A stretch of DNA of 51,468 nucleotides, taken from the sequence record PP988008.1. One strand, 5' to 3'. Shown piece by piece: positions 1-30,674 of this stretch. The translations under genes were made by a program, and so were the position numbers. Source of the stretch: Escherichia phage phiE31-2. Each line of letters opens with the position of its first letter. Position 1 is the first letter of the stretch. The notes beneath the pieces were generated by a model. That model was not told where the DNA came from and ran no database searches. It saw only the letters and a program-made list of their open reading frames with translations.

Positions 1-539
1 ACGGTCTAACCAACCAAATGGCTACATTCCTTGCAACAGGAAAGGCAAACTTTAAGAGCTTCGCAACGTCAATCATCCAAATGATTATCCAGATGATCAC
101 GAAGATGGTTATCTTTAATGCCATATCCGGTGCGATTGGCGGTGACACTTGGACGATTGGAAGCCTTCTTAAAAATGTTGGATTTGCAACTGGTGGATAC
201 ACTGGCGACGGCGGGAAGTATGAGCCAGCAGGTGTTGTCCATAAAGGCGAGTTTGTCATGACGAAGGAGGCCACGAAGCGGATCGGAGTTGGAAATCTTT
301 ACAAAATGATGCGCGGTTATGCAAATGGCGGCGTTGTTGGCGGCACTTCATACACTGGCGGCGGAGTTTCATCTGGAGCAACAAATCTTAATATTGGCGG
401 GATCAGCGTTGATATTAACAGCGGAAACGATCCGAAAGGGTTGGAGACTGGCGTAAAAATGATTTTCACTGATATGATTAAGCGATCCTGTACGCAAGGT
501 GGGGAAGTTTACGAATTTGTTATGTCTAAGCGGGGGTGA
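1..539 (+). CDS. tail tape measure protein, C-terminal segment (5' end outside window)
   Basis: Frame open from nt 3 to stop at 537-539; Gly-rich TMP-like C-terminus; directly followed by lambda-like M/L/K/I/J genes; in frame with 49335..51468 across the junction. Confidence 0.8.
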
Positions 540-892
540 TAGTGAAACTTGAGCAATTCAAATGGTGTACGCAAACGCAAGGAGGCGGCGGCACTATGAC
601 CACATCAAATAACGACAGGGAAATCTCATTTGGTAATGGTTACACGCAGGTTGCTTCAGGAGGGTTTAACACGGTACGCAGGGAGTTTTCCATTGTCTAT
701 GTGGGTAATGATTACCGAGATGTTGTTGACTTCCTGAATGGTCACAGGTTGAAGCCGTTTTTATGGTTTATGCCTGACGGTCAACCTGGTCTATTCAGGG
801 TGAAATCCGGTAGCGTTGGATTGACTCCAATATCAGCAACCGTTCAGGAAGTGAAAGCAACATTTACTGAGCAATTTACATCAATGCAATAA
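536..892 (+). CDS. minor tail protein (lambda gpM-like)
   Basis: 118 aa; FKW..FGNGY..FLW pattern resembles lambda M; GTG start overlaps TMP stop; alternative ATG at 596 preceded by AGGAGG. Confidence 0.7.
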
Positions 893-896
893 TTCA

Positions 897-919
897 AGCC
901 GCCTTTGTGCGGCTTTTTT
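897..919 (+). terminator. rho-independent terminator-like hairpin after M
   Basis: GCCGC-loop-GCGGC followed by TTTTTTATT. Confidence 0.55.
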
Positions 920-953
920 ATTGATGATACAATGCACGAAAGGAGGTGCAATT

Positions 954-1715
954 ATGGCTAATGAAACAACAGGTCGCGCGGATCTTGAAAATTGTCTGCA
1001 AAGCCTTTACCCTGGCGAGATTATCACGCTAATTGAAATTGACGGCACAAAGTTTGGCGCAAACATTTACCGCATACACAATGAGAACATCTCATACACT
1101 GCGGAAGAATTATTGCAGGCGCGAGAAACTGGAGTTCTTCCGCCGAAAGAGATTACATTCCGTGGTGAGGTTTACGGAGCGCGCCCGTTCGGAATATCTG
1201 GAATCAACTTCACAAGCAACGGAAAGGCTGATAAGCCACAATTGATACTATCAAACCTTGATAGCCAGGTGAGCGCGATGATTCGCAACTTTAACGGCAT
1301 GATGCAAGCTAAGGTTACAATCTGGATCACGCCAGCGGAATTAATGGGGAAAGATGGCAGCATTAAAGATGGAGCATCAAGAAAGCTGGTTTACTACATT
1401 GAGCGCCCAAGCCATTACAATAGAATGATGGCGAAATTTGACCTGACATCGCCTTATGATATGGATGGAATAATGATTCCTCCGCGAATAACTCAAAGCG
1501 TTTGTTATTGGGCGCAGCGTGGATGGTATCGAAGCGGAAAAGGTTGCGGATACAATGGATCGCGAATGTTTGACAAAGACAACAATCCTGTAACCGATCC
1601 ATCTCAAGACTTTTGCGCAGGAACTGTAACAGCGTGCAAACTTCGTTTTGGTGCAGATAAGCAGCTTGATTTTGGCGGTGCACCAGTAGCAAGCCTGTTA
1701 AGGAGAAATCAGTGA
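954..1715 (+). CDS. minor tail protein (lambda gpL-like)
   Basis: ATG preceded by AGGAGG; size and position after M; Cys-rich C-terminal region as in L-like proteins. Confidence 0.8.
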   Translation: MANETTGRADLENCLQSLYPGEIITLIEIDGTKFGANIYRIHNENISYTAEELLQARETGVLPPKEITFRGEVYGARPFGISGINFTSNGKADKPQLILSNLDSQVSAMIRNFNGMMQAKVTIWITPAELMGKDGSIKDGASRKLVYYIERPSHYNRMMAKFDLTSPYDMDGIMIPPRITQSVCYWAQRGWYRSGKGCGYNGSRMFDKDNNPVTDPSQDFCAGTVTACKLRFGADKQLDFGGAPVASLLRRNQ

Positions 1716-2446
1716 TGATTAGTGCAAAAATAAAACTTGAAATAATGCAGCACGTAAAAGATGAATACCCGCGCGAGGCGTGCGGGGTTATCACTCAAAA
1801 ATCACGCGTGCAAAAATACCACCGCATAACCAACGTGCATGATGATCCTGAAAATCATTTTGAGATGAACGCAATTGAATACGTTGAGGCGTGTGAAAGT
1901 GGCGAGCTTATTGCTGTTGTGCATAGCCACACTGGAGACGGGGCAAGTACAATTCCAAGCGCCCATGATACATGCATGTGTGATGAAATGGGTGTTTCAT
2001 GGGTTATTGTGTCATGGCCCGAAGGTGATATGAGAATCATTGAGCCTGAATCTCGTCCTCTGATTGGTCGCCCGTGGTCGCTTGGTGCGTATGATTGCTG
2101 GGGGCTTATTATGGCATGGCACAAGCAACATGGCGTTATCCTTAATGATTTCAGGAAACCATATGAATGGTGGAAGCCTGAGTACGGTGAAAATCTTTAT
2201 CAAGAAAATTATCTGAAAGAGGGTTTTGTTGAAACAGGAGAGCCGCCAAAACCTGGTGATATGGTTATCTTTCAGCTTTCCGCGCCAGTGTGGAATCATG
2301 CAGGCATTTATCTTGGCAACAATCAGTTGCTTCATCATGCCTTTGGTAAGTTGTCGAGGGTTGATTTGTATTCTGGATGGTATCAGGAACATGCAAAAAT
2401 GGTTTGTAGACATAAGGATCTGAAATATGACTTTGAAGGTAATTAA
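1715..2446 (+). CDS. tail assembly protein (lambda gpK-like; MPN/JAB plus NlpC/P60-like)
   Basis: ATG overlaps L stop (ATGA); HSH-x-D metal-binding-like motif (VVHSHTGDG) and C-terminal Cys/His peptidase-like region; synteny. Confidence 0.8.
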   Translation: MISAKIKLEIMQHVKDEYPREACGVITQKSRVQKYHRITNVHDDPENHFEMNAIEYVEACESGELIAVVHSHTGDGASTIPSAHDTCMCDEMGVSWVIVSWPEGDMRIIEPESRPLIGRPWSLGAYDCWGLIMAWHKQHGVILNDFRKPYEWWKPEYGENLYQENYLKEGFVETGEPPKPGDMVIFQLSAPVWNHAGIYLGNNQLLHHAFGKLSRVDLYSGWYQEHAKMVCRHKDLKYDFEGN

Positions 2447-3023
2447 ATTATCTGGATCTTTAGGGCGAAGATTTGGTGTATTTCATAAGCTGGCTGTTGA
2501 CTCATACCCTGAAGCAATCCGTGCGCTATCTTCGCAGGTGGAAGGATTCAAGGACTACATGCAAAGCGAAGTAGGATCGCGAATGCGTTACGCTGTATTT
2601 GTTGACGGTAAGAATGTAGGACAGCACGATGAAAAAGCGTGGCAATGCGCAAAGGAAGTGAGGATTATTCCAATCCCAACAGGTTCAAAGTCTGGCGGGT
2701 TGTTTCAGGTTGTTCTTGGCGCGGTTATTATGGCGACTGCATTTTTCACTGGCGGCGCTTCACTTGCTTTGATGGGCGCTTTTGCATCTTCTGCTTTCAT
2801 GATGGGTGGTGCTATGGTGCTTGGCGGAGTAATGCAAATGATCTCACCGCAGCAAGGAGGATCAAGATTGTCATCCCAATCAGCAAAAAACAAGCCGTCT
2901 TATGCTTTCGGTGGCGCTGTTAACACAACGGCAGCAGGATACCCAATACCATTGCCATATGGTCAAAGGACCGTCGGCGGAGCTATCTGGTCGGCTGGGA
3001 GTTATGCAGAAGATAAGGCTTAA
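2427..3023 (+). CDS. tail assembly protein (lambda gpI-like)
   Basis: 198 aa; hydrophobic Gly/Ala-rich C-terminal half typical of I-like proteins; overlaps K end; lies between K and J. Confidence 0.75.
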   Translation: MTLKVIKLSGSLGRRFGVFHKLAVDSYPEAIRALSSQVEGFKDYMQSEVGSRMRYAVFVDGKNVGQHDEKAWQCAKEVRIIPIPTGSKSGGLFQVVLGAVIMATAFFTGGASLALMGAFASSAFMMGGAMVLGGVMQMISPQQGGSRLSSQSAKNKPSYAFGGAVNTTAAGYPIPLPYGQRTVGGAIWSAGSYAEDKA

Positions 3024-3103: not shown

Positions 3104-6100
3104 ATGGCTGAAAATATGATAACGGGCAGTAAGGGTGGATCATCAAAACCTTATGTTCCGAAAGAGATGGAAGATAACCTGATCTCAATCAACAAAATCA
3201 AAATCCTTCTTGCCGTTTCCGATGGTGAGTGTGATCCAGATTTTACACTTCGCGATCTGTATCTTGATGATGTTCCGGTAATTGCAGACGACGGAACTGT
3301 TAACTACCAGGGTGTGAAAGCTGAATTTCGACCTGGAACGCAGACGCAAGATTACATCAAGGGGTTTACTGACACATCAAGCGAAGTGACGCTGGCGCGT
3401 GACATTACTACATCAAATCCTTATGTAATTTCTGTAACCAACAAAACATTATCGGCTATCAGAATCAAAATGCTAATGCCAACAGGCATTAAGCAAGAGG
3501 ATAACGGCGATCTTGTCGGAGTTAAGGTTACTTATGCTGTTGATATGGCTGTTGACGGAGACTCTTACAAAGAAGTATTGCGAGACACTATCGAAGGTAA
3601 AACGCGTTCCGGTTACGACAGAAGCCGAAGGATTGACCTTCCGGCATTTAATGATCGCGTATTGCTTAGGGTTAGAAGGGTTACGGCAGACAGCGCATCA
3701 TCTCGCGTTACTGATCTGATTAAGCTACAAAGTTACGCTGAGGTTATTGATGCAAAATTCCGTTATCCTCTGACTGGTCTTGTATACGTTGAATTTGACA
3801 GTGAGTTGTTCCCTAACCAGATCCCTAACATTTCAATCAAGAAGAAATGGAAGCTGATTAACGTTCCGAGTAACTACGATCCTGTTTTGAGAGAGTATCA
3901 TGGTTCATGGGATGGTACTTTCAAGAAAGCGTGGTCGAACAATCCGGCGTGGGTTCTTTATGACATTATCACAAACCAGCGATACGGATTAGATCAGCGA
4001 GAACTTGGTGTGCAGGTTGACAAATGGAGTCTTTACGAAGCGGCGCAATACTGCGATCAGAAAGTGCCGGATGGAAAAGGCGGTACAGAGCCGCGTTATC
4101 TATGCGACGTTGTGATTCAAAGCCAGATTGAGGCTTATCAGCTTATTCGTGATATTTGCTCAATCTTCCGAGGCATGAGCTTTTGGAATGGCGAGAGCTT
4201 GTCAATCGTCATTGATAAGCCGCGCGATCCGTCGTACATCTTCACCAATGACAACGTTGTTGATGGTGATTTTCAGTACACAACAGCAAGCGAAAAGAGC
4301 ATGTACACGCAGTGCAACGTGACGTTTGACGACGAACAAAACATGTATCAACAGGACGTAGAGGGCGTATTCGACACAGAGGCCGCATTGCGCTTTGGAT
4401 ACAATCCGACAAGCATAACAGCGATCGGATGTACACGCAGGAGTGAGGCTAATCGTCGCGGTCGATGGATACTAAAAACCAACTTGCGCAGCACTACGGT
4501 AAACTTTGCTACTGGACTGGAAGGCATGATCCCATCAATAGGTGATGTGATTGCTATTGCTGACAACTTTCACAGCAGCAACCTGAAGTTAAACCTATCA
4601 GGGCGCGTGATGGAAGTTTCCGGCTTGCAGGTGTTCGTTCCGTTTAAGATTGACGCGCGACCAGGTGATTTCATTATCATCAACAAGCCGGACGGAAAGC
4701 CAGTTAAGCGCACAATCTCAAAAGTAAGCGGTGACGGAAAAACCATTGAGCTAAACATTGGGTTTGGGTTTGAAGTTAAGCCGGATACAGTTTTTGCAAT
4801 CGACCGCACTGATATTGCATTGCAGCAATACGTTGTAACGAGTATCGGCAAAGGTGATGATGATGATGAATTTACATACTCCATCACGGCTGTTGAATAT
4901 GACCCGAACAAATACGACGAGATTGATTATGGAGTAAACATTGACGACAGGCCAACTTCAATTGTCCAGCCTGACACAATGGCAGCGCCTGAAAATGTGC
5001 AAATATCCTCATACTCGCGAATTGTCCAGGGTGCAAGCGTTGAAACAATGGTTGTGTCGTGGGATAAAGTACCTTACGCATCGCTGTATGAAATGCAATG
5101 GCGAAAGGGTGATGGCAACTGGCTGAATACACCACAGACAGCAAACAAAGAAATTGAGGTTGAAGGTATTTATTCAGGAAACTACCAGGTAAGGGTTAGA
5201 TCTGTTTCCGCTTCAGGTTCTACGTCTCCGTGGTCCAGAATTGTGACAGCATCACTGACTGGTAAGGTAGGAGAGCCAGGCGCGCCAGTTAACTTAACCG
5301 CATCCGACAATGAAGTGTTTGGCATTCGTGTTAAGTGGGGGATGCCAGAAGGGAGCGGAGACACTGCATACATTGAGCTTCATCAGTCGCCAGATGGAAC
5401 AGCGGAAAACTCAAGACTGCTAACGCTGATCCCGTATCCACAATATGAATACTGGCATGGAACGCTTCCGGCTGGTCATGTTGTATGGTATCGGATCAGG
5501 AGCGTAGACAGGATCGGTAACGTTTCCGGTTGGACTGATTTTGTTAGAGGTATGGCTTCAGATGATGTGGAGGCTGTTTTAGGAGATATTCTTGATAAGA
5601 TTTTTGATACTGAAGCAGGTCAGGATCTTAAAGAGAACGCCATTGACAGTGCAAACAAGATAAAGGACCAGGCGCAAGCAATCATCCAGAATGCTCTTGC
5701 TAATGATGCTGATATTAAGTGGACGCGAGTACAAAATGGAAAGCGAAAGGCTGAATATGGTCACGCGCTTGAGCTTATCGCCACAGAGACTGAGGCGCGA
5801 GTTACGCAGATTGAAGAATTGAGGGCGTCAATCGACGAGGATATTGTTTCAAGCATAAAGACAGTGCAGGAGGCTATCGCCACAGAATCTGAAACGCGAG
5901 CAACTCAAATAAATGCTTTGGATTCAAAATTCACAACTGAAATTGACGGTGTAAAACGCGATACAGCCGCAAGCATTAATCAGGTGAATCAAACCATTGC
6001 CAATGAGTCAGAAGCGCGCGCGCAGGCCGTTAACGCGCTTGATGCGAAGTTCACAAAGGAGATCGAAGATTTAAACGGAGTCATTAAGACTGAGGTTGAG

Positions 6101-7332: not shown

Positions 7333-7608
7333 TTACCCCCAAAACGTATATATATATCTTGACTCGCCAGCATTAAGACCAGACCACGAAACAGTATTCC
7401 CGCTAACGTTTATTGTTGGTGCTCCCCAGTTAACTCCAGCCCACGTCTGCGTTCCAATATATCCAGCCTTTAATGTTTTTCCTGGTGGCTGATTGTAATA
7501 TGTCTTGCTTCCTGATGGTTGTGTGAATCTATCCAGGAAGAATACAGGAGTTAATAAACCAGTAACATCCCTTCCTTGTTCGTCGTAAATTGCGTAACCG
7601 TATGCCAT
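7333..7608 (-). CDS. hypothetical protein, candidate receptor-binding module component
   Basis: 91 aa; ATG overlaps stop of lipoprotein gene (TAATG); N-terminus resembles that of the downstream 204-aa protein. Confidence 0.5.
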   Translation of the reverse strand: MAYGYAIYDEQGRDVTGLLTPVFFLDRFTQPSGSKTYYNQPPGKTLKAGYIGTQTWAGVNWGAPTINVSGNTVSWSGLNAGESRYIYTFWG

Positions 7609-7877
7609 TATTTGCACTCCACATAATCAAAATTATCCTCGCTTTGCCACCTGTGAACGAAAGTTACATATTTTTGTGATGGAGCTACGCGATAGTGTTT
7701 TTCACCGAATCTGTTTTCGCGCACAGCGTTTATTTTCACAGGATAGCTATCATTTACAGGGAATGTTTTCACCATGTATGAGCCAACGCAATCAACCTCT
7801 TTATAGCCCCCATCCATTGACGCAGAACAACCAGTCAGGGCAACGGCGGCAATCAAAACGGCTATTAACTTTTTCAT
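7608..7877 (-). CDS. outer-membrane lipoprotein, putative superinfection exclusion (Cor/Llp-like)
   Basis: Signal peptide MKKLIAVLIAAVALTGC with lipobox LTGC; AAGGAGA RBS; adjacent to tail-tip genes. Confidence 0.6.
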   Translation of the reverse strand: MKKLIAVLIAAVALTGCSASMDGGYKEVDCVGSYMVKTFPVNDSYPVKINAVRENRFGEKHYRVAPSQKYVTFVHRWQSEDNFDYVECK

Positions 7878-7910
7878 TTTTGGTGTCTCCTTAGTTGTTG
7901 TTGGTTGCAA

Positions 7911-7952
7911 CTATACACGATCTTGCGGTGGGCGTTTAGCAAAAAGTGCCAC
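7911..7952 (-). promoter_or_regulatory. conserved-motif promoter-like element (lipoprotein/RBP operon)
   Basis: Minus strand TGGCACTTTTTGCTAAAC - 18 nt - TATAGT, then RBS and ATG of lipoprotein. Confidence 0.5.
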
Positions 7953-8062
7953 TCTGTTCTTTTTGTTCTCCTGCGTTCTCAAATCTGCGGAGGCTTAAAT
8001 TTAGCTCAAAATGTGAGCAACAATAGAGCGATATACATACAGATAAATATATATACATACAT

Positions 8063-8190
8063 ATAAATCAATAAGTTAGTAGTATATATATTTATATTTG
8101 TTCTTTATTGTTATCTATGTTTTGTGTGATTTTGTGTGTCTGGTGATTTTTCTGTGATTATGTATGTGTCAGTGGTTGTGTGTGTCTATA
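8063..8190. repeat. AT-rich conserved core plus GTGAT(T) iteron cluster, copy A
   Basis: ~50-bp core (ATAAATCAATAAGTTAGT...ATTTATATTTGTT) ~85-90% identical by eye to 30350..30399; followed by repeated GTGATTTT/GGTGATTTTT units. Confidence 0.6.
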
Positions 8191-8322
8191 TATCTATATC
8201 CGGCGCAAATTGAGGAGCAAGAGAACAAAAAGACAACAAAGATATTTATCAATCACTTACATGTAAGTTTTGTTATCAAAGATGTCTAGAACGTTGTTAG
8301 AACAGAAAAAACAAAATAACTA

Positions 8323-8350
8323 TTGACTAAACGCATCAAATAGCTACAAT
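8323..8350 (+). promoter_or_regulatory. sigma70-like promoter for recombination operon
   Basis: TTGACT - 16 nt - TACAAT about 30 nt upstream of exonuclease ATG. Confidence 0.55.
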
Positions 8351-8379
8351 GCAGACATACCAACCAATGAGGGCAAATC

Positions 8380-9441
8380 ATGAATAAGTTTATGGCGTAC
8401 ACCAGCGAAGAAATGAGCAACGAGCTTTATCACAATCCAGAAGCGTGGACTGCTGATTATGTTAGCGGTTCAAGCCTGGCAGAGATTTACAGCACATGCC
8501 CGGCAGCGTGGAAGTTCAAGCCGCGTGACGACAAGAGCAAGGCGCTAGTTTTTGGTACGCAGTCGCATACCAATTTTGAAAGCAAGGAGCTTTTCGAAAA
8601 AACCTATCGCCGTGCGCCAGCGCCAGAAGACTTTAAGGATCTGATAACCAGCCAAACGGAGCTTGCTGCAAAGCTAAAATCATTTGGCCTGAAAGGTACA
8701 ACAGGAAAGACTTACCCTGAACTTATAAAAATGTTGGTTGACTGCGGAGAAGACCTTAACGTCATGTGGTTAATCGACATGATCGCAGAAAGTCAAGCCA
8801 GGGCCGATGGGGTTCAGTTAATCGAAGCTAAAGATTACGATGCGTGCGTGGCAATGCGCCAGGTTCTGGAATCAATACCGGAACATAACGCATGTATGAA
8901 TAGCAAGACGGCACAACGTGAATTATCGTTATTCGGTGAAATCAACGGCGTAAAAGTCAAAGTGCGATGCGATCACGTTGACGTAACAAAGAACGTGACA
9001 GCAACTCTTATTGATGGTTACGATGAAAAAGGTCAGCCGATTTGCCGCGATATTATTTATCCAGAAGCTATTGTGATCACTGACTACAAAACAACAATGA
9101 GCGCTAATCCGGTTGAGTTTATGCGCCTGGCTTACAATCACGGCTATTATTTGAAAATGGCGTTGCAATGTGATTTATTCAGAAAAGCGTATCCAGAAGA
9201 AAAGCGACCTATAGTTGTGCGACTGTTAGCGCAAGAGAAGAAAGAGCCTTATTTGCCGTTGGCTTTCCGCATGAACAGCGAGCAATTGAAGATCGGGCGC
9301 ATTCAGTACATGAGCGTAATTAACCAGTTTGCCATGTGCCAGCAACATGACGTTTGGCCTTCGTATTCAAACGGTGAGCCGGAGGTTTGCCTTGATACTC
9401 CTGATTGGGTGCGACGCCAGTTTAAGCAATATCTTATTTAA
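8380..9441 (+). CDS. PD-(D/E)XK-family recombination exonuclease
   Basis: 353 aa; nuclease-like D..(ITDYK) motif; precedes Erf and SSB genes; strong upstream sigma70-like promoter. Confidence 0.65.
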   Translation: MNKFMAYTSEEMSNELYHNPEAWTADYVSGSSLAEIYSTCPAAWKFKPRDDKSKALVFGTQSHTNFESKELFEKTYRRAPAPEDFKDLITSQTELAAKLKSFGLKGTTGKTYPELIKMLVDCGEDLNVMWLIDMIAESQARADGVQLIEAKDYDACVAMRQVLESIPEHNACMNSKTAQRELSLFGEINGVKVKVRCDHVDVTKNVTATLIDGYDEKGQPICRDIIYPEAIVITDYKTTMSANPVEFMRLAYNHGYYLKMALQCDLFRKAYPEEKRPIVVRLLAQEKKEPYLPLAFRMNSEQLKIGRIQYMSVINQFAMCQQHDVWPSYSNGEPEVCLDTPDWVRRQFKQYLI

Positions 9442-13674: not shown

Positions 13675-13953
13675 TTAAGCCCACTCCCTAAGTTTTTGAT
13701 CCGTCACAACGGTTCTGCTATTGAATAATTTCGCATCGTAATTATCATTAATGATGCGAGCGTTCACAAAATAACCATCATTTTTCTCTACAATTTCCTC
13801 TCCTTCTTCCGTTACAGATACAACAGTGTAAGTGTTCCCGATAACGTCGAGAAGAATTGCATCCTGAATGGATTCGTTTTCGTTCCATTCAATTTCTTCA
13901 AGAAAGGCAGAAAACTCTGCCTTGTCTGCAAATTTCAGTGTTAAATCTCTCAT
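13675..13953 (-). CDS. hypothetical protein
   Basis: 92 aa; ATG overlaps stop of tail fiber gene (TAATG). Confidence 0.5.
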   Translation of the reverse strand: MRDLTLKFADKAEFSAFLEEIEWNENESIQDAILLDVIGNTYTVVSVTEEGEEIVEKNDGYFVNARIINDNYDAKLFNSRTVVTDQKLREWA

Positions 13954-15908
13954 TATACAATTTCCCCCAATTGATGATCTGTTAATGCCTTATGCCAGAT
14001 CCTAAAGTTTCTAATGTGTCCAAACAAATGGCGCTCTCCAGTTCCTGTTTGTCCGCCAAACCTGATATTTTTATCTCCTGTTACGCCTATGTAATCGCAG
14101 TATGAATCAGACACTGCTATAGCATTGGTGACAACATGAAATTTGCCATCAGATTTTGCAATGCATCCAAAAGTGGATTTTTTTGCAAACACATCAGATG
14201 CCGCACTATTAATATATGCCCCAGCAGGCGTTGATAAACTCATGTATAATTTTCCACTTCCTCTATTTATTGCCGCAATTGCTGATTGACCAGTATTTGC
14301 AGCAGCTATATCCCAAACACGAGGGGCAGCATTTGGAGCAACATCCCAACACTTACTAACCTCAAGCAAAAAAGTAAACGGCAATTTATATAGGTTGTTT
14401 TTTGTTGGAATGCTAACAAGATCGCTAGCTCTCGTTGTTGGCATTGAAGTTATAATAAATGACGATGCTGTATTTCCAAGTTCAATTTGCGGCGTAGCCA
14501 TCGTTAACGTTGAATCAGAATAAAATGGTTCGTTGTTAATTTTATTAGTCATGTAAAATGCACAATTAACAGTGTCAACATTTTTATTGGCTGTATATGT
14601 CGCTTGATAATACATCCATTCGCCATCCTGTTCCACTTTAGCGGTTATAAGTGAAGTGTCGCCACTTACCGATGCAACCAAAGTATCAAGATCCAAATAA
14701 GAATCAGCAGAAAATGTATCTACTCCATCAATAATTGTAGACACTCGAAGCCTGCATCTTGCTTTAGCACCTTTAACCCTACAAGAAAAGGTGAAACTTT
14801 CACCTGACACCAAAGGGAATCTATCGGCTGTAACAACTCCATGAACGGTATAACCTCCAGTAGTACCAACAATACTTTCTACAGGGGTGACTGTAGCGTA
14901 GTTAAAACCACGATCATCCGTTCCGAAAGTTTTATTTAAAGAAGAATGAATAGTCCAAGAATCTGTTTTATTTGAGTTTCTTAGATAGTTAGTTCTTTGC
15001 CCTTCGATTAAAAGACCTTCTTTTTCAAAACGAGGTTCGTCAATCTCCGCAACAGTCAATACACCTGATTTGTTAATATAAGTTGCTGTTGAAGCGCGTG
15101 AAAATGTAACTACTTTATCTGTTGGCATAGTTATAACATCATTACCAACTGTTATTTTTTTGTAACCAGGCGCAAAGCCTGTAATCATCTCAAGAGAATC
15201 ATTAAACGGTATCCATACATCCGGCAGCGGTTGAAGCACATCTTTGTAAGGTTCTCCAGCTTGTTTTGCATATTCCTCCGCTTGATCGCGCGCAGTTTCA
15301 GCACCTGTCTTTGCGGTGTTAGCTGCATCGCGCGCTGATTCTGCGGCAGCCTTTGCACTTTCCGATCCAGTCTTTGCAGTGTTAGCTGCATCGCGCGCGG
15401 ATTCAGCAGCAGTCTTTGCAGAATCAGCGCCTTTCTTACTGTTTTCTGCATTTGTTGCGCTTATCTTCGCGTTATTCTCGCTAGTTTTAGCGGCATTCTG
15501 GCTTGCTGCGGCCGCAGCAGCATCGCTCTTTACGTCAGCCTGTATCTGTTGAAGTTTATCCCAATCAAATGTTTCGATGATCTCAATGAATCTGGCAAAT
15601 TCAGTTTCTTTACCCTGGTAATATCGCAGTGTTTCAGCGACATCTTGCGCCAGGCCATCAACAGTTATTGAATCATGAAGCATGATCAGATAGTTTGTCT
15701 TTGCTACAACAGCTCCGCCAGTAGTAATGGCGCGAATGCTTGTGTCGCTAATAACCTCAGTGATTACAGCGGCTTGCATTGGATTTGTTAAGAAAAATAT
15801 TGTTGCACCAGGGCGAATGAGTGTTAGCTGTTCGCGCCATTTTGTGCCGTATCCAGTTATATAACCTTGCGCGTCCATTGACGCCTGTCCGGTTCTGTAA
15901 ATTGCCAT
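13953..15908 (-). CDS. lateral tail fiber protein
   Basis: 651 aa from ATG with GGAGAAA RBS; N-terminal fiber-attachment-like region, Ala-rich repeated [15 protein letters not shown] motifs, beta-rich C-terminus. Confidence 0.75.
15290..15435. repeat. imperfect ~63-bp tandem repeats inside lateral tail fiber gene
   Basis: TCTTTGCRGTGTTAGCTGCATCGCGCGC...GATTC..GC.GCAG.CTTTGCA repeated with 63-bp period (Ala-rich protein repeats). Confidence 0.7.
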
Positions 15909-16007
15909 GCGTTTTCTCCAATGTTGCATGTTAATGTCAATGCAGATAATAGCATTTGCTAAGGCAAAAAAAAACCCCGCAATGCGGGGTAAAAGTAGCA
16001 GTGACAT

Positions 16008-16988: not shown

Positions 16989-16995
16989 ATTGTTT

Positions 16996-17469
16996 TTAGC
17001 AATTAGTGCTTTCAGGTTTATACAGGAATCCGCCAGGTTCATAATCTGACATTCTTACCACTCGCAACATTTCACGCTTATCACATCTCTTTGTGAGCGG
17101 TTTACCATTGGAATCAAATCGCAGATCTGGACGGCAGAATGACGCGCGATAGCCTTGACAACCATATTTCTTGTAATCGTTATGCACCTTTTGAGCGCCA
17201 GCGGCTGAAATCATACCGCGAACACGCCACTGATTTACAGTTTGCTGGCTAACGTTAAGACGTTTTGCCATTGCTGACACACTTCCGTAATACTCAATAA
17301 GGATGTCAAGTCGCGCTTTTAGCCCGGCGCGCACCTCATCTTTTAGAACATAATAACCTGTCGGTCGCTTGCGCTTCTTCTTGTCCTTGCCTCGTCTTGT
17401 TCCGTTATTGCCATTAATTGTGCGCTTGTCAATCTTGCCTGTTGATACTGCGATTCTTTTCTCTTTCAT
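16996..17469 (-). CDS. HTH DNA-binding protein, putative transcriptional regulator
   Basis: 157 aa; basic N-terminus (KDKKKRKR) and helix-turn-helix-like SAMAKRLNVSQQTVNQWRVRG; divergent from helicase gene. Confidence 0.6.
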   Translation of the reverse strand: MKEKRIAVSTGKIDKRTINGNNGTRRGKDKKKRKRPTGYYVLKDEVRAGLKARLDILIEYYGSVSAMAKRLNVSQQTVNQWRVRGMISAAGAQKVHNDYKKYGCQGYRASFCRPDLRFDSNGKPLTKRCDKREMLRVVRMSDYEPGGFLYKPESTNC

Positions 17470-17483
17470 TATTCATTCTCCAA

Positions 17484-17525
17484 TAGCATTTTTTGTTAAA
17501 CGATGATTTAATGATTGTGTATTAT
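17484..17525 (+). promoter_or_regulatory. conserved-motif element in helicase/HTH divergent region
   Basis: TAGCATTTTTTGTTAAAC - 18 nt - TATTAT; on the opposite strand a TTGAGT-16-TATAAT promoter for the HTH gene overlaps. Confidence 0.5.
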
Positions 17526-17558
17526 ACACGCCAAATGGCATTACTCAAAGGTTTTAGA

Positions 17559-19598: not shown

Positions 19599-20004
19599 TA
19601 AAGGCGATTATCTAGAGTTTTACGAAAGAGATCCGACGGATACGCTAAAAGAGGAATCACACCAGATCGGGGCGTTTCAATGGTTGACTTATGCTTACCC
19701 TGAATTACTGGCATGGCATACGAAAAACGAGGGCGACAAGGGAATCGCCACCGCAATGATGGATCAGCAAGCTGGACTCGTTAAGGGAGTAAGTGATTTT
19801 ATCATCCTGATTGGATTAAAAGGCCGTTACCCGTTCGCGGCTATTGAGATGAAACGCGTCAATAAGTCTGGCAAGGGTAAGGCTTCACCAGTCAGCAAGG
19901 AGCAAAAAGCCTTCTTGCGCCGTGTGCGTGAACTTGGCGGATTCTCTGCCGTAACATACGGATATAAGCAATTCATGATCGCTGTAGAATACATGATGAA
20001 ATAG
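19585..20004 (+). CDS. VRR-NUC domain nuclease
   Basis: 139 aa; D..(AIEMK) PD-(D/E)XK core; overlaps helicase stop. Confidence 0.65.
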   Translation: MAMTDKGDYLEFYERDPTDTLKEESHQIGAFQWLTYAYPELLAWHTKNEGDKGIATAMMDQQAGLVKGVSDFIILIGLKGRYPFAAIEMKRVNKSGKGKASPVSKEQKAFLRRVRELGGFSAVTYGYKQFMIAVEYMMK

Positions 20005-20044
20005 CACTTTTTGTTAAAACAGGCGCGAAGGATTGCGCCATAAT
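20002..20044 (+). promoter_or_regulatory. conserved-motif promoter-like element (upstream of dam)
   Basis: TAGCACTTTTTGTTAAAAC - 18 nt containing GGCGC/GCGCC inverted repeat - CATAAT; TAG is stop of upstream gene. Confidence 0.55.
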
Positions 20045-20078
20045 AACACCAGTTCAACAAGCAACAGGTAATTAAGAA

Positions 20079-20780: not shown

Positions 20781-20784
20781 AACC

Positions 20785-21024
20785 ATGCAAAAAGAAAGAA
20801 GCGTTTATTTAAATGAAACTGGAGAATGGTTGTTATTTCGCGCTATGGTTTGCGATGCGCTTGATAAAAACGATTTCATAAAACCGCTATTATGTTGCGA
20901 TCCGTGGGAGTTTACAAGCGCGCTTGACATGAGCTTTGAGGAAACAAGAAAGCTACCGCTTGAAAAATGGCATGAGCAGATCTGTAAAGACTTGCAAGAG
21001 TTTTACGAATCCGCGTCAAAATAG
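20785..21024 (+). CDS. hypothetical protein
   Basis: 79 aa from ATG after ACGGAG RBS; stop TAG embedded in conserved motif. Confidence 0.5.
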   Translation: MQKERSVYLNETGEWLLFRAMVCDALDKNDFIKPLLCCDPWEFTSALDMSFEETRKLPLEKWHEQICKDLQEFYESASK

Positions 21025-21064
21025 CACTTTTTGTTAAAACGCCCGGCCTTGTGTCGGGCATAAT
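21022..21064 (+). promoter_or_regulatory. conserved-motif promoter-like element
   Basis: Identical 19-mer - 18 nt (GCCCG/CGGGC inverted repeat) - CATAAT. Confidence 0.55.
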
Positions 21065-21096
21065 TATTTCATCAAAACGAACAAGAGGAAAATAAA

Positions 21097-21508: not shown

Positions 21509-21519
21509 GGATTATTATC

Positions 21520-21594
21520 ATGTGGCGTTTGTTACTTTTGCCCTTACCTGTTATGATGGCGATCTCTATTGTATATGTTGTCATAATGAGATAA
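21520..21594 (+). CDS. possible small hydrophobic peptide
   Basis: 24-aa ORF MWRLLLLPLPVMMAISIVYVVIMR with GAGG RBS; its stop lies in the RBS of the next gene. Confidence 0.25.
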   Translation: MWRLLLLPLPVMMAISIVYVVIMR

Positions 21595-21606
21595 GGAGAA
21601 TTTTTG

Positions 21607-24797: not shown

Positions 24798-26381
24798 TTA
24801 CCCCAGCAATGTTGGATTTACGAAAACAACGCCATTAATCACACAAATATAATTTCTTTCCTCAAGCATCGGAAGCAGTTGCGTTTCCATTCGCTTCATT
24901 ACGCCAGCCTGACCAACAAACGGCTTAACTTTTCGTGCAGCCTCATATATGGCGCGAACATTCAAGATTCCCTTATTAGCCTTTCCGTGTCGAGTGATGA
25001 TCTCGATTAGTTTACCCATTTCAGCATCATCACCAGCGTAGCCAGAAGCGTTGGCGGCGCTAATGTATGTTTTGCTCAACTCGCTAAACATCAGCAGTGC
25101 TTCCTGAACGGTTTCAACCTCAATCTCTTTCGACTTTTGAGGGTATCCGCAAGGATTAAACCAATTGCGGATAGTGTGCAAAACCGAAGCAATCCTGATC
25201 ACCTGCTTATCCATTTTGCCAAGCGCACCGCGCAGCATTGTATGCGAATACTTTCCGCCATCGGCAAGGTGCGGTTCCATCTCCTGACGAGCCATGTTAA
25301 GAACTCGCATTGCTGATTTGCTGATCTTAAGCTGGATGTTTGATTCGCTCATGATGTTATGGATCAGCTTAAAATATTGGCTTTTCAGTTCCCCATCAAC
25401 AGGCTCATAAGTCGAATCACCGTTATCATCAACAAACTTTCTACGGCCTAAAAATGATTCCTCACGCACAAGCAAATAACGCTCACTTACACCGATACCG
25501 CGCGATCCTGCATCCATGATGGCATTGATTGTTTCATCCTGGGCAATTACCGCCATACAGCCAAGAGCTTTAAAACTCATATTGTTGTCAGCGTTTGCAC
25601 GAGCTATAGAAACATGACCATGATCCCATGCTTTCAGCACAAGTTCGCTGTTGGTTTTACGTTCGCTATTGGCATATGTCAGACCTAAAAGGCTGTTAAT
25701 ACTCGTTGCCTCGTCTGAAATTACAGCAAAGTTACCCTGGCGATTATTGATTCTTGCAAGTCCTTCCGGCGTGGTGTCGGACACAGGGAAAACAATGTCA
25801 CACATCTTTTCCAGCTTTTCTTCAAGATCTTCTTTCTCCTGGTATAGCGATTCCATATCAGCGCCGGAGCGCTCGCTTTTCATCTCTTTTGCAAGACCTG
25901 CCAACTTTGCCTGAATCTTTTTTCTTTCCTTCTTTCGCTGATCGTTAATTCTTTCCACTTCCGCAACCATTGGAGCAAGTGCCAGGCTGTTAACGGCAGA
26001 TTTACCAGTTGAAGGAGGTTGGCTTGTAACAACGTACAGAGCGGTTGGTTGATCCGTTCCGTGATACTCAACAGTGAAGCGTCCAAGCATTGCAGCAGAC
26101 ACGCATCCGATAAAATGCATATATGCCGATGATTCAGGGAATTGAACAGATCGAGCAATGTTGCGCGCCAACTTTCCAACAACATCAACATCATTGCCAA
26201 GAGAAATTACAGGGTAGCGATCGTTTCCGTTATTAACATCATTAACCTCACCCCAAAAGCTGGACGATTGACGGTATCCGTTTGCCTGAATGGACACGCG
26301 CACCGGAGACAATCCTTGCGCATCAGCTAATTCGATAATTTGTTTTGGTGTTAGTTTATTGGTTTCAAACGAAAAATTCAT
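24798..26381 (-). CDS. P-loop NTPase, putative replication-associated protein
   Basis: 527 aa from ATG with AAGGAG RBS; Walker A-like QPPSTGKS; coiled-coil K/E-rich segment; large early leftward gene. Confidence 0.6.
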   Translation of the reverse strand: MNFSFETNKLTPKQIIELADAQGLSPVRVSIQANGYRQSSSFWGEVNDVNNGNDRYPVISLGNDVDVVGKLARNIARSVQFPESSAYMHFIGCVSAAMLGRFTVEYHGTDQPTALYVVTSQPPSTGKSAVNSLALAPMVAEVERINDQRKKERKKIQAKLAGLAKEMKSERSGADMESLYQEKEDLEEKLEKMCDIVFPVSDTTPEGLARINNRQGNFAVISDEATSINSLLGLTYANSERKTNSELVLKAWDHGHVSIARANADNNMSFKALGCMAVIAQDETINAIMDAGSRGIGVSERYLLVREESFLGRRKFVDDNGDSTYEPVDGELKSQYFKLIHNIMSESNIQLKISKSAMRVLNMARQEMEPHLADGGKYSHTMLRGALGKMDKQVIRIASVLHTIRNWFNPCGYPQKSKEIEVETVQEALLMFSELSKTYISAANASGYAGDDAEMGKLIEIITRHGKANKGILNVRAIYEAARKVKPFVGQAGVMKRMETQLLPMLEERNYICVINGVVFVNPTLLG

Positions 26382-30055: not shown

Positions 30056-30269
30056 TTTGCTGACTGGTTATTATTCCATCTATTCCATTAATCAGGAATA
30101 ACAGGAATAAATCATTCGCGATCACCTGGATTGTGAGACTTTGAGTTTGATCAATTTTAATCAGTTGATTAACTTTTTGTGTGGAGGGGATAGAGAAACG
30201 CGGTCCTCTTGCGTCCTTTCCGGCAATCCTGGCGCGCGCATCTGTTATTTCTGTTCCCTGTGTTATCAC
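30024..30269 (-). CDS. possible first leftward early protein
   Basis: GTG start 7 nt after GGAGG; ~81 aa; 3' end reads through the promoter-like motif of the next gene. Confidence 0.3.
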   Translation of the reverse strand: MITQGTEITDARARIAGKDARGPRFSIPSTQKVNQLIKIDQTQSLTIQVIANDLFLLFLINGIDGIITSQQIALFVKTRSE

Positions 30270-30349
30270 AATCAAGCCTCCGCACTTTTAGATAACAGAT
30301 TCGGCGTTCATCAACAAAAAGAACAAAATAAATTTTATATATATACCCA

Positions 30350-30520
30350 TAAAATCAATAAGTTAGTTATATATGTATTTATATTTGTTATTTACTGTTG
30401 AGCTTGTTCTATGGGTATATGGTGGTGTTGTATTGTTTGTGGTGATATGTATGTGTGATTGTATATTTTTTAATCAATGGTGATGCGTGGTGATTTTTGT
30501 ATGTATATATATGGGTATGG
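30350..30520. repeat. AT-rich conserved core plus GTGAT(T) iteron cluster, copy B
   Basis: Homologous core and four or more GTGAT units; lies in the divergent early control region. Confidence 0.6.
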
Positions 30521-30645
30521 GGGAATCCTCCGTCAACCAAGTCAACAAGGTCATTTTTAACAGAGAAACCAATGTCTTAACTGAAGCATTTTGTTATCTT
30601 TAAACGCGCCACATGCCAAAAATTGTTATTAAAACACAAAATATA

Positions 30646-30674
30646 TTGACATGTAGGAAAGGCAAGGCAATAAT
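30646..30674 (+). promoter_or_regulatory. sigma70-like rightward early promoter
   Basis: TTGACA - 17 nt - AATAAT upstream of first rightward early gene. Confidence 0.5.

What the first reader, a model, noticed from the sequence alone, without database searches (positions are those of the whole stretch)
7981..8379. AT-rich noncoding region with GTGAT(T) iterons (copy A) upstream of the recombination operon
About 470 bp without a credible ORF contains a ~50-bp core (8063-8110) that recurs at 30350-30399 with roughly 85-90% identity by eye, followed by clustered GTGATTTT/GGTGATTTTT repeats and GT-rich tracts, then a near-consensus promoter (TTGACT-16-TACAAT at 8323-8350). Iterons in an AT-rich setting suggest an origin of replication, a packaging-related site, or a binding array for a phage or host protein. 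Two homologous copies 22 kb apart on a ~51 kb circle is notable.
Basis: seen in the sequence. Interest (0 to 1): 0.65.

Follow-up and report, generated by a model that had tools for sequence, protein, structure and literature searches.

The report
Twin origin-like elements in T1-like phage
This T1-like coliphage carries two copies of a conserved ~400-bp noncoding element, built like a replication origin (an easily melted AT-rich core flanked by short phased repeats), which gives a testable candidate for the still unmapped origin of T1-like phages.

Summary
The window is a permuted genome of a Hanrivervirus (Drexlerviridae) close to phage KarlJaspers. The interval 7911-8379 is noncoding, the core 8063-8112 recurs at 30350-30399 (43/50 identical), and the promoter at 8323-8350 is real and conserved.

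The GTGAT(T) "iterons" are not exceptional. The repeats that stand out are TGTT[CA]T/A[TG]AACA hexamers: 7-8 per element against about 1 expected, in groups spaced 9-10 bp apart, in both orientations around the AT core.

Both copies lie in the genome's two long divergent intergenic regions. Their AT cores are the two least stable duplex segments in each of six Drexlerviridae genomes. A and B are paralogous within every genome.

Distant phages that share the MCM-like DUF3987 helicase have the same architecture beside that gene, with unrelated lineage-specific repeats (GGTAAG, CGCCCA, TGGGGT).

My best reading (about 0.5) is a SaPI/P4-type iteron origin for a self-loading helicase, present in two copies and coupled to the early sigma-70 promoters. 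The main rival is an early-promoter control array. The mapped pac site of T1 and TLS lies beside copy B, outside the shared element. No experiment supports any of these readings yet.

The parts
7934..7954 (-). Degenerate copy of the 21-nt DR promoter-associated repeat, serving the leftward cor operon. It is followed by a TATAGT -10 box at 7910-7915 on the minus strand. This marks the left edge of element A.
   Evidence: Read from the sequence. DR consensus taken and the TLS paper PMC11447400. This copy has 3 mismatches.
7955..7979 (+). Outer-left iteron triplet TGTTCT-TGTTCT-CGTTCT, spaced 9-10 bp apart.
   Evidence: Aligned positions in the T1 clade carry TGTAAC.
7985..8005 (.). Left GC box (CTGCGGAGGCTTAAATTTAGC). 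It corresponds to CCGGCGTAAAT in relatives and is repeated at 8200-8215.
   Evidence: The box changes together at both positions in the Henu7 clade, where it reads CCCACCG(C/T)A(A/G)AATC.
8030..8098 (.). AT-rich core of element A, a candidate DNA unwinding element.
   Evidence: Least stable duplex of the genome at 40, 80 and 150 bp windows, z=4.4-5.5. The same holds in five other genomes.
8066..8078 (+). IHF consensus match AATCAATAAGTTA inside the most conserved part of the core.
   Evidence: The identical 13-mer occurs at 30353-30365. It is conserved in tonijn and Henu7 A and B copies.
8099..8123 (+). Inner-right iteron triplet TGTTCT-TGTTAT-TGTTTT, spaced 10 and 9 bp, directly abutting the AT core.
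   Evidence: Present at +19 to +56 from the core centre in all eight Tempevirinae elements examined.
8118..8185 (+).
   Evidence: the top keto-skew window of the genome is 8085-8184. for conservation of the GGTGATTT box.
8200..8215 (.). Right GC box CCGGCGCAAATTGAGG.
8222..8239 (-). Outer-right iterons in the opposite orientation: AGAACA followed by AGACAACA, spaced 9 bp.
8247..8259 (+). Second IHF consensus match, TATCAATCACTTA.
   Evidence: This block (AATCAnnnACTTA) is conserved in 8 of 8 Tempevirinae elements.
8294..8313 (-). Promoter-proximal iterons TGTTAGAACA followed by AAAACA.
8323..8350 (+). Sigma-70 promoter TTGACT-16-TACAAT driving the recE-like exonuclease, erf and ssb operon.
   Evidence: Conserved across Drexlerviridae.
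30059..30240 (.). Left extension found only in copy B. It includes the palindrome TTAATCAgtTGATTAA at 30156-30171. It is homologous in position to the place where the T1, TLS and Rtp records start (the mapped pac site or left end). It is not part of the shared element.
   Evidence: PMC7718038 and PMC11447400 for pac mapping.
30243..30266 (+). Element B outer-left iteron triplet TGTTAT-TGTTCC-TGTTAT, spaced 9 bp.
30311..30325 (-). Element B inner-left iterons in the opposite orientation: TCAACA and AGAACA, spaced 9 bp.
30316..30395 (.). AT-rich core of element B, including the IHF consensus match at 30353-30365.
   Evidence: Second least stable duplex segment of the genome, z=4.0-5.1. for the IHF match.
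30386..30410 (+). Element B inner-right iteron triplet TGTTAT-TGTTGA-TGTTCT.
30410..30526 (+). Element B G+T-rich tract, with C-free runs at 30410-30474 and 30487-30526.
30646..30674 (+). Sigma-70 promoter TTGACA-17-AATAAT driving the rightward block of small early genes. The first of these is a DUF7174 protein at 30711-31181.
24798..26381 (-). Inferred trans-acting partner: a DUF3987 (SF6, MCM-like) helicase of 527 aa with a C-terminal winged-helix domain (residues about 451-527).
   Evidence: Pfam E=2.6e-43. AlphaFold2 model with pLDDT 87.7. Foldseek best hits are MCM2-7, archaeal MCM and Cdc6/Orc1. The C-terminal domain matches winged-helix folds. PMC4889955 classifies the family. Binding to the iterons is inferred, not shown.

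Best explanation
Each copy is a phage replication origin of the iteron type.

Anatomy (shown): an extremely AT-rich core that melts easily is flanked on both sides, in opposite orientations, by groups of two or three hexamer iterons. The iterons read TGTT[CA]T here and are spaced one helical turn apart. There are two IHF-type bending sites and a strand-skewed G+T tract. The whole element lies between outward-firing promoters.

Mechanism (inferred):
1. Host RNA polymerase fires the consensus sigma-70 promoter on the right edge soon after infection.
2. Divergent transcription drives negative supercoiling into the AT core.
3. A phage protein binds the phased iterons. The leading candidate is the MCM-like DUF3987 helicase, acting through its C-terminal winged helix.
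4. With IHF-type bending, that protein melts the core and loads itself, as SaPI Rep and P4 alpha do.
5. The P4-alpha-like primase and host Pol III then take over.

The two copies would be either redundant origins or a cooperating pair like P4 ori and crr.

What is shown: the sequence architecture, its statistics, its conservation, the A/B paralogy, the synteny with the helicase in distant phages, and the fold of the helicase. What is inferred: binding, melting and initiation.
For: 1. The iterons are real and confined to the two loci. There are 7 and 8 TGTT[CA]T/A[TG]AACA sites per 400 bp against 0.65 expected, and the next-best window has 3. None of 2000 dinucleotide shuffles of the same DNA reached the observed count. 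Spacing is 9-10 bp.

2. The layout relative to the AT core is conserved in eight Tempevirinae elements. The nearest iterons on the two sides point in opposite directions: A[GT]AACA at -35 to -63 and TGTTMT at +19 to +56.

3. The AT cores are the first and second least stable 80-bp duplex segments in each of six genomes from three subfamilies (z=4.7-6.3; the third best is 3.5 or lower).

4. A and B are paralogous in all six genomes, with z=8-27. The noncoding region is about as conserved as the flanking genes: 92-96% within the genus and 68-75% between genera.

5. The iteron sequence is lineage-specific. It is TGTAAC/TGTAAT in the T1 clade and Rtp, and TGTTCT in Tempevirinae. That points to a phage-encoded reader rather than a host factor.

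6. Distant phages whose DUF3987 helicase is only 37-40% identical have the same design. In L054, L060 and L062 it lies directly upstream of the helicase gene or its operon. In L056 it lies about 5.4 kb upstream of the helicase gene. In each case the least stable segment of the locus is flanked by 10-11 lineage-specific hexamers. These are GGTAAG in L054 and L060 (clearly spaced 9-10 bp), CGCCCA in L056 and TGGGGT in L062.

7. The phage encodes no recognisable separate initiator or loader. Its DUF3987 protein models as an MCM-like AAA+ helicase with a C-terminal winged helix. PMC4889955 describes the family the same way.

8. SaPI Rep helicases, which include SF6 members, recognise 5-6-nt iterons through a C-terminal winged-helix domain. 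Their origins have 6-12 iterons split around an AT-rich centre in opposite orientations (PMC9371898).

9. The primase is homologous to the N-terminal primase domain of P4 alpha (E=1e-13). P4 has phased 8-bp iterons at two distant cis sites, ori and crr.

10. Five of the 15 IHF consensus matches in the genome lie in A or B.
Against: - There is no experimental evidence of initiation, binding or melting for any T1-like phage. I found none in the searchable literature. The T1 (2004) and Rtp (2006) genome papers could not be read.
- Both copies sit exactly between divergent promoters and carry the consensus early promoters. A transcriptional operator or enhancer array with a co-evolving regulator predicts the same lineage specificity and the same synteny with the helicase operon.
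- Iteron type does not track the helicase cleanly. Rtp has T1-type GTAAC iterons, but its helicase, including the putative recognition helix, is closer to Tempevirinae (72% against 56%).
- In Drexlerviridae neither copy is adjacent to the helicase gene. Copy B is about 4 kb upstream of it.
- In the T1 B copy the TGTAAC count is low and other repeats dominate, including three copies of GATTAAC.
- T1 replication may rely largely on recombination, since it has a terminally redundant genome and RecE/Erf functions. If so, a defined origin may matter little.
Confidence: 0.5

Rival explanations
1. The elements are early-transcription control regions only. The iteron arrays are operators or enhancers for a phage regulator that shuts off or boosts the two consensus sigma-70 early promoters and the facing leftward promoters. 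Candidates are the Cro/YdaS-like HTH protein at 16996-17469 or a small early protein. The AT-rich and (GT)n-like tracts would act as UP-like, curved or supercoil-absorbing DNA between divergent promoters.
For: - Both copies occupy the only two long divergent intergenic regions and end in 10/12 and 11/12 sigma-70 promoters.
- The TLS paper found only three intergenic sigma-70 promoters in that genome (PMC11447400), so these are probably the early promoters.
- Iterons lie immediately upstream of the -35 box (8294-8313) and next to the leftward DR promoter (7955-7979).
- An HTH regulator homologue sits next to the primase gene even in the distant phage L054.
Against: - The arrays span about 370 bp and are centred on the genome's most meltable segment, not on the promoters.
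- The best conserved A/B core lies 220-300 bp upstream of the -35 box.
- The regulator's recognition helix does not track iteron type. TLS differs from the window although both have TGTTCT-type iterons, while T1 resembles the window although its iterons differ.
- The inverted-iteron, AT-core geometry and the 9-10 bp phasing match described origins (PMC9371898; P4 record).
Confidence: 0.3
2. The shared element is packaging-related, for example a terminase small-subunit binding array. Copy B would be pac and copy A a secondary or decoy pac-like site.
For: - The T1 record starts, with an annotated 2.8-kb terminal repeat, inside the B intergenic region. The TLS and Rtp records start at the same place.
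- PMC7718038 states that pac lies in this untranslated region, and PMC11447400 maps the TLS pac site by restriction analysis.
- TGAT(T)-type repeats occur both in the pac-proximal stretch and in the GT tracts.
Against: - Position 1 of T1, TLS and Rtp lies 200-215 bp to the left of the B AT core, in a stretch that copy A lacks. B is about 200 bp longer than A in every genome examined.
- Classical work describes one pac site and one packaging series for T1 (my own knowledge, together with PMC11447400).
- TGATT and GTGAT clustering in this window does not exceed chance.
- In L054, L060 and L062 the same architecture accompanies the helicase gene, not the terminase genes.
Confidence: 0.05
3. The A/B similarity is a by-product of recombination. 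The elements would be module-boundary sequences or hot spots for the phage RecE/Erf system, kept alike by gene conversion, with no sequence-specific binding function of their own. Alternatively they are sites where recombination-dependent replication starts.
For: - Copy A heads the recE-erf-ssb operon.
- The window is 99.6% identical to KarlJaspers at A but only 95.4% at B, which indicates mosaic exchange at B.
- Within a genome, A and B cores resemble each other more than orthologous cores do across subfamilies.
Against: - Gene conversion alone does not explain the phased, oriented, lineage-specific hexamer arrays.
- It does not explain their conserved positions in eight elements.
- It does not explain why the same design recurs with unrelated repeats in distant phages that show only one array in the stretch examined.
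Confidence: 0.07
4. The region encodes a small RNA or micro-ORF, and the conservation reflects that product.
For: The region is conserved without an annotated gene. Some GenBank records annotate short hypothetical proteins in it.
Against: - No Rfam family matches, even at E<=1, in either region or in the whole window.
- Only the outward-facing promoter passes the scan inside either element.
- The alignments show indels that do not preserve a reading frame, and conservation concentrates in short repeat blocks.
- ORFs in the region are 53 aa or shorter.
Confidence: 0.03

Closest known systems
SaPI/PICI origins served by self-loading Rep helicases (Staphylococcus aureus pathogenicity islands; PMC9371898)
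   Same: - Short 5-6-nt iterons, 6-12 copies.
- An AT-rich centre with iterons on both sides pointing in opposite directions.
- Lineage-specific iteron sequences.
- An initiator-helicase of SF3 or SF6 (MCM-like) type with a C-terminal winged helix.
- No separate loader, and a primase encoded nearby.
   Different: - SaPI origins lie immediately downstream of rep and are single. Here there are two copies 22 kb apart, each between divergent promoters and 4 kb or more from the helicase gene. In the distant phages L054, L060 and L062 the array lies directly upstream of the helicase gene or its operon.
- The element here is larger, about 370 bp.
- It has extra conserved GC boxes, IHF-type sites and a G+T-skewed tract.
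- Binding by the helicase is untested.
Satellite phage P4 ori and crr, bound by the alpha primase-helicase
   Same: - Two distant cis elements carry the same short iteron (TGTTCACC) in groups spaced 9-11 bp, in both orientations (P4 record).
- The T1-like primase is homologous to the alpha N-terminal primase domain (E=1e-13).
- The first five bases of the iteron (TGTTC) happen to match the Tempevirinae iteron.
   Different: - P4 alpha is a single polypeptide with an SF3 helicase and its own C-terminal origin-binding domain. BLASTP found no similarity between it and the window's DUF3987 helicase, SF2 helicase or HTH regulator.
- P4 ori and crr are 4.8 kb apart and are not full-length paralogues of each other.
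- The P4 ori is not the least stable segment of its genome.
- The TGTTC resemblance is probably coincidence, since T1 and Rtp use GTAAC.
Bacillus phage SPP1 oriL and oriR (from my own knowledge, not checked here)
   Same: A virulent pac-type siphovirus with two homologous origin copies far apart. Each has initiator-binding boxes next to an AT-rich region.
   Different: The SPP1 initiator G38P is a separate origin-binding protein that works with a DnaB-type helicase and a loader. One SPP1 origin lies inside the initiator gene. I could not verify the details with the tools available.
Lambda ori and T7 or T4 transcription-activated origins (from my own knowledge)
   Same: Iterons plus an AT-rich region (lambda), and dependence of origin opening on nearby transcription (lambda pR, the T7 phi1.1 promoters, the T4 oriF/oriG promoter plus DUE).
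   Different: - Lambda ori lies inside the O gene and has 18-19-bp iterons.
- T4 and T7 origins use a transcript that runs into the DUE. Here both detected promoters fire away from the core, and no inward promoter was found.

Membership tests
Iteron origin for a self-loading helicase (SaPI/PICI type) | Six to twelve short (5-6 nt) iterons clustered at one locus | tested here: met
   Seven to eight TGTT[CA]T/A[TG]AACA sites per element, plus degenerate copies. Expected 0.65 genome-wide and about 1.1-1.2 from dinucleotide shuffles of the same DNA. 0 of 2000 shuffles reached the count.
Iteron origin for a self-loading helicase (SaPI/PICI type) | AT-rich region near the centre, with at least two iterons on each side pointing in opposite directions | tested here: met
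   The AT cores rank first and second for duplex instability. Iterons lie at -35 to -63 (A[GT]AACA) and +19 to +56 (TGTTMT) in most of the eight Tempevirinae elements. Copy A of the window has only a weak inner-left site (GCAACA at 8017).
Iteron origin for a self-loading helicase (SaPI/PICI type) | Origin immediately downstream of the rep/helicase gene | tested here: not met
   The helicase is at 24798-26381. Copy B is about 4 kb upstream in the same leftward transcription unit, and copy A is 16 kb away. In the distant phages L054, L060 and L062 the array lies directly upstream of the helicase gene or its operon, in L056 it lies about 5.4 kb upstream, and in L061 a weaker candidate lies directly downstream.
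Iteron origin for a self-loading helicase (SaPI/PICI type) | Helicase-initiator of SF3 or SF6 type with a C-terminal winged-helix domain | tested here: met
   DUF3987 by Pfam. AlphaFold2 model pLDDT 87.7 with MCM and Cdc6/Orc1 as best Foldseek hits. The C-terminal 90 aa has a1-b1-a2-a3-b2-b3 topology and hits winged-helix folds, though no hit has E<=0.001. PMC4889955 agrees.
Iteron origin for a self-loading helicase (SaPI/PICI type) | Iteron specificity co-varies with the helicase winged-helix domain | tested here: inconclusive
   The start of the putative recognition helix is invariant (GVMKR) in four genera with TGTT-type iterons and differs in every other iteron class. However, Rtp has GTAAC iterons like T1 with a Tempevirinae-like helix.
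Iteron origin for a self-loading helicase (SaPI/PICI type) | Specific binding, melting and initiation of replication at the site | not testable with these tools
   Needs EMSA or footprinting, marker-frequency analysis, or plasmid amplification assays.
P4-type ori/crr pair | Two distant cis sites sharing the same phased iteron | tested here: met
   A and B are 22,287 bp apart and share iterons spaced 9-10 bp. P4 has type-1 repeats spaced 9-11 bp at 4291-4590 and 9310-9413.
P4-type ori/crr pair | Alpha-type multifunctional protein whose own C-terminal origin-binding domain reads the iterons | tested here: not met
   Only the primase domain of alpha has a homologue, the 310-aa primase (E=1e-13). 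BLASTP found no match to the alpha helicase or origin-binding domains in the four replication-module proteins compared (primase, DUF3987 helicase, SF2 helicase, HTH regulator).
pac site (headful packaging initiation) | Coincides with the mapped first-cut or left end of virion DNA | tested here: not met
   The T1, TLS and Rtp records begin 200-215 bp to the left of the B AT core, in B-specific DNA that copy A lacks. Ends of this particular phage were not available.
Sigma-70 early promoter region | Consensus -35 and -10 hexamers with 16-18 bp spacing, facing the downstream operon and conserved in relatives | tested here: met
   8323-8350 matches 10/12 and 30646-30674 matches 11/12. TTGACT...TAnAAT is conserved in about 18 of the 20 aligned A regions; L045 is gapped there and the TLS locus was truncated in that alignment. 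Membership as a promoter does not exclude origin function.
Known RNA families (Rfam 15) | Covariance-model match | tested here: not met
   No hit at gathering threshold in the window. No hit at E<=1 in 7900-8400 or 30000-30720.

The most novel reading that the evidence does not exclude
Drexlerviridae, and more broadly phages that replicate with a DUF3987 MCM-like helicase plus a P4-alpha-like primase, use a SaPI-like self-loading origin whose hexamer iterons co-evolve with the phage. In T1-like phages this origin has been duplicated and fused to the two host-polymerase early promoters. Early divergent transcription would then license two origins 22 kb apart. Alternatively, the two copies would synapse like P4 ori and crr. 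If true, this would be the first defined origin for the classical phage T1 group. It would also give a general sequence rule for finding origins in this replication-module family.
Probability: 0.4. Interest if true: 0.7.

Novelty: new variant of a known kind. Interest (0 to 1): 0.6.

Why it matters
T1 is one of the original T phages, yet its origin of replication has not been identified. Recent genome papers state that no oriC-like site or iterons could be found (PMC7718038, PMC11447400).

This analysis points to two specific ~400-bp elements with a defined iteron, a defined unwinding core and a candidate initiator. The same architectural rule holds in distant phages with unrelated iterons. 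That makes the open question directly testable by marker-frequency sequencing, plasmid amplification and EMSA.

It would also extend the self-loading MCM-like helicase origin paradigm from staphylococcal islands to a large family of virulent enterobacterial phages that matter as laboratory and fermentation contaminants and as therapy candidates. If the elements turn out to be purely transcriptional, they still define the early control regions of the family.

Tried and rejected
1. GTGAT(T) as the iteron. Clusters of equal size occur elsewhere in the genome, so I rejected it as the defining repeat.

2. TGATT arrays as a motif shared between the pac-proximal DNA and the GT tracts. They are not exceptional in this window. 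They are the top cluster in the B-left stretch of T1, TLS, Henu7 and Rtp (tied with other sites in some of these), so I recorded them only as a side note.

3. ncRNA. Rfam found nothing at gathering threshold or at E<=1.

4. Inward-facing promoters that could feed an R-loop into the G+T tract. None passed the consensus scan.

5. GC skew as an origin indicator. The skew simply follows transcription direction.

6. Homology between the DUF3987 helicase and solved structures or P4 alpha by sequence. None found. Only fold comparison gave MCM.

7. Covariation of iteron type with the Cro-like regulator. Not supported.

8. Covariation of iteron type with the helicase winged helix, using Rtp as a mosaic test case. 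Inconclusive.

9. Plasmids carrying the element. None found. The single plasmid hit for the helicase is a mislabelled T1-like phage genome.

10. Literature. No paper in the library reports an origin for T1-like phages. A search for TGTTCACC returned only primer sequences. The T1 (2004) and Rtp (2006) genome papers are not held.

11. DnaA boxes. I only inspected the sequence by eye and made no systematic scan, so no claim is made.
Full report
**What the window is.** The window is a circular permutation of a T1-like phage genome. It is 99.6% identical over 7600-8700 to Escherichia phage KarlJaspers (Bas06; Drexlerviridae, Tempevirinae, Hanrivervirus).

The finding's interval, 7911-8379, is the divergent intergenic region between a minus-strand Cor-like lipoprotein gene (7608-7910) and the RecE-like exonuclease gene (8380-9441). 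That gene heads an exonuclease-Erf-SSB operon. The second copy lies in the other long divergent intergenic region, about 30059-30710. It sits between a leftward block of small genes that leads to a DUF3987 helicase and a rightward block of small early genes that starts with a DUF7174 protein.

**Checking the observation.**
- The core is real. 8063-8112 and 30350-30399 are 43/50 identical without gaps, and the central 37-mer is 34/37 identical. The next best match of that 37-mer in the genome is 23/37.
- The local A-B alignment scores z=16 against shuffles that keep local composition.
- The promoter TTGACT-16-TACAAT at 8323-8350 is found by the scan. It is conserved in relatives from several subfamilies. 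Copy B ends in TTGACA-17-AATAAT at 30646-30674.
- The G+T-rich tracts are the two most keto-skewed 100-nt windows of the genome.
- The GTGAT(T) repeats exist, but equally dense clusters occur elsewhere. Only one GGTGATTT box is conserved in orthologues.

**The repeats that do stand out.** These are TGTT[CA]T and its complement A[TG]AACA. There are 7 in 7928-8327 and 8 in 30226-30625, against 0.65 expected per 400 bp and a maximum of 3 anywhere else. None of 2000 dinucleotide shuffles of either region reaches the observed count.

They come in groups of two or three spaced 9-10 bp apart. On the + strand they start at 7955/7964/7974, 8099/8109/8118, 30243/30252/30261 and 30386/30396/30405. Opposite-orientation copies lie at 8222/8231, 8299/8308 and 30311/30320.

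**The core is physically extreme.** With nearest-neighbour energies, 8030-8109 and 30316-30395 are the first and second least stable duplex segments of the 51.5-kb genome at 40, 80 and 150 bp windows (z=4.0-5.5). The same holds for the A and B regions of T1, TLS, Henu7, tonijn and Rtp. In those genomes z=4.7-6.3, and the third-ranked segment never exceeds 3.5.

**Comparative anatomy.**
- The A region is conserved as noncoding DNA: 92-96% within Hanrivervirus and 68-75% in other genera. That is about the level of the flanking genes.
- A and B are paralogous within each of the six genomes examined (z=8-27). In tonijn the homology spans roughly 370 nt, essentially the whole element, and in Rtp it is 123 nt at about 85% identity.
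- An alignment of eight Tempevirinae elements (four genomes, A and B) shows a fixed order of blocks:
  1. outer-left iteron triplet
  2. GC box (CCGGCGTAAAT-like)
  3. inner-left iterons in the opposite orientation
  4. AT core holding a perfect IHF consensus (AATCAATAAGTTA)
  5. inner-right iteron triplet
  6. G+T tract
  7. second GC box
  8. outer-right iterons in the opposite orientation
  9. second IHF-type block (AATCAnnnACTTA)
  10. promoter-proximal iterons
  11. sigma-70 promoter
- The positions of the iteron groups relative to the core centre are conserved.
- Five of the genome's 15 IHF consensus matches fall in A or B.
- In the T1 clade and in Rtp the aligned iteron positions carry TGTAAC/TGTAAT/TGTATA instead of TGTTCT. 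All these phages share enterobacterial hosts, so a lineage-specific motif argues for a phage-encoded reader.

**Relation to pac.** The B regions are about 200 bp longer than the A regions, and the extra DNA is on the left. The GenBank records of T1 (with an annotated terminal repeat 1..2800), TLS and Rtp all begin inside this B-specific stretch. Their B AT cores lie at 208-287, 202-281 and 216-295. The SU57 paper states that pac lies in this untranslated region in T1-like phages (PMC7718038). The TLS paper maps pac by restriction analysis (PMC11447400). So pac is a neighbour of copy B and is not part of the sequence that A and B share.

**The trans side.**
- The phage has no DNA polymerase and no recognisable initiator or loader.
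- It encodes a primase with a T7/P4-type zinc ribbon, homologous to the N-terminal domain of P4 alpha (22% identity over 250 aa, E=1e-13).
- It also encodes an SF2 helicase, a Cro/YdaS-like HTH protein, and a 527-aa DUF3987 protein.
- An AlphaFold2 model of the DUF3987 protein (pLDDT 87.7) finds MCM2-7, archaeal MCM and Cdc6/Orc1 as its best structural matches.
- Its last ~75 residues have winged-helix topology. Modelled alone, they match winged-helix domains including the MCM4 winged-helix domain, although no hit reaches E<=0.001.

**Test in distant phages.** If the array belongs to the replication module, it should travel with the DUF3987 helicase.
- *L054 and L060:* two related metagenomic phages whose helicase is 37-39% identical to the window's. 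A 500-590-bp divergent intergenic region directly upstream of the helicase gene contains the least stable segment of the locus. That segment is flanked by 11 GGTAAG/CTTACC copies, spaced 9-10 bp in L054.
- *L062:* the region upstream of the helicase operon holds all 11 TGGGGT/ACCCCA copies of the 8.3-kb locus. They are arranged in inverted fashion around the least stable segment.
- *L056:* ten CGCCCA/TGGGCG copies flank the least stable segment of a divergent intergenic region about 5.4 kb upstream of the helicase gene.
- *L061:* only a weak candidate, downstream of the helicase.

So at least five iteron classes share one architecture linked to this helicase-primase module.

**Interpretation.** The architecture matches the published description of SaPI origins almost point for point. 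Those origins have 5-6-nt iterons, 6-12 copies, an AT-rich centre and opposite orientations on the two sides. They are read by the C-terminal winged helix of a self-loading SF3 or SF6 helicase (PMC9371898). The architecture also recalls P4, whose annotated type-1 iterons (TGTTCACC) are spaced 9-11 bp apart, occur in both orientations, and sit at two distant cis sites, ori and crr.

I therefore favour a replication origin, present in two copies. Divergent early transcription and IHF-type bending would help an iteron-bound phage protein open the core and load the MCM-like helicase.

The main rival is that the arrays are only operators or enhancers for the early promoters. Location and lineage specificity fit that reading equally well. 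The extreme meltability, the size of the array and the inverted phased geometry fit it less well.

The regulator's recognition helix does not follow iteron type. The helicase winged helix is invariant at the start of helix 3 in the four TGTT-type genera. However, Rtp combines T1-type iterons with a Tempevirinae-like helicase.

**Novelty.** In the accessible literature, the origin of T1-like phages is explicitly reported as not found, and iterons as absent. I could not read the original T1 and Rtp genome papers. The kind of element is known. Three features are new: its identification in this family, its duplication, and its fusion to the early promoters. Everything functional remains inference until tested.

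Noticed in passing
window 16994-36424 (16 copies), plus 44876-44894 and 48635-48653: The 21-nt repeat ATAGCACnnnTTGnTAAAA occurs 18 times with 2 or fewer mismatches (0.2 expected). Most copies are oriented with transcription. Where checked, the repeat lies about 22 nt upstream of a CATAAT-like -10 box, too far to act as a -35. This suggests an activator-dependent promoter class. The repeat is known from the TLS paper, where its function is listed as an open question. Two copies are antisense to the late structural genes.
   Followed up: partly
window 30059-30240: This stretch is specific to copy B and absent from copy A. It holds the palindrome TTAATCAgtTGATTAA (30156-30171), which gives two overlapping IHF consensus hits. 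The homologous stretch in T1, TLS and Rtp is where the GenBank records start (the mapped pac site or left end). In T1, TLS, Henu7 and Rtp that stretch is the top or joint-top TGATT cluster of the genome, which makes it a candidate terminase small-subunit binding array.
   Followed up: partly
window 7600-8700 versus 30276-30710: The window is 99.6% identical to KarlJaspers around copy A but only 95.4% identical at copy B, where Henu8 and others are closer at 97%. This indicates mosaic exchange at or near copy B.
   Followed up: no
GenBank MG065636-MG065681 (hits to window 7600-8700): Eighteen records labelled 'Campylobacter phage' with host Campylobacter jejuni matched this region of the coliphage. 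The ones listed are about 94-95% identical. The host assignment looks doubtful.
   Followed up: no
L059 (CP124687.1, 1-19172): A 49.6-kb record labelled as a Paraclostridium bifermentans plasmid is a T1-like phage genome with many frameshifted genes; the helicase is in five pieces. Its B-like intergenic region again holds the least stable segment (z=5.8) and GGTAAGAT-like repeats.
   Followed up: partly
window 15292-15417: A 63-bp tandem duplication (84% identity) lies inside the large minus-strand ORF 13953-16007, which by position corresponds to the lateral tail fibre gene annotated in KarlJaspers.
   Followed up: no
L058 (Rtp) 42193-43776 and 39259-40395: Most Rtp proteins are about equally distant from T1 and from Tempevirinae (about 50%). 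The DUF3987 helicase is Tempevirinae-like (72% against 56%). The DNA repair exonuclease is T1-like (87% against 55%). This shows module exchange within the replication and repair region.
   Followed up: partly
L061 8388-8918: In one distant phage the only large gap near the helicase lies directly downstream of it, the SaPI-like position. It holds a TTACTTACTTACTTAC run and a GGTTGCCC direct repeat next to the least stable segment. This is a weaker case than the other loci.
   Followed up: no
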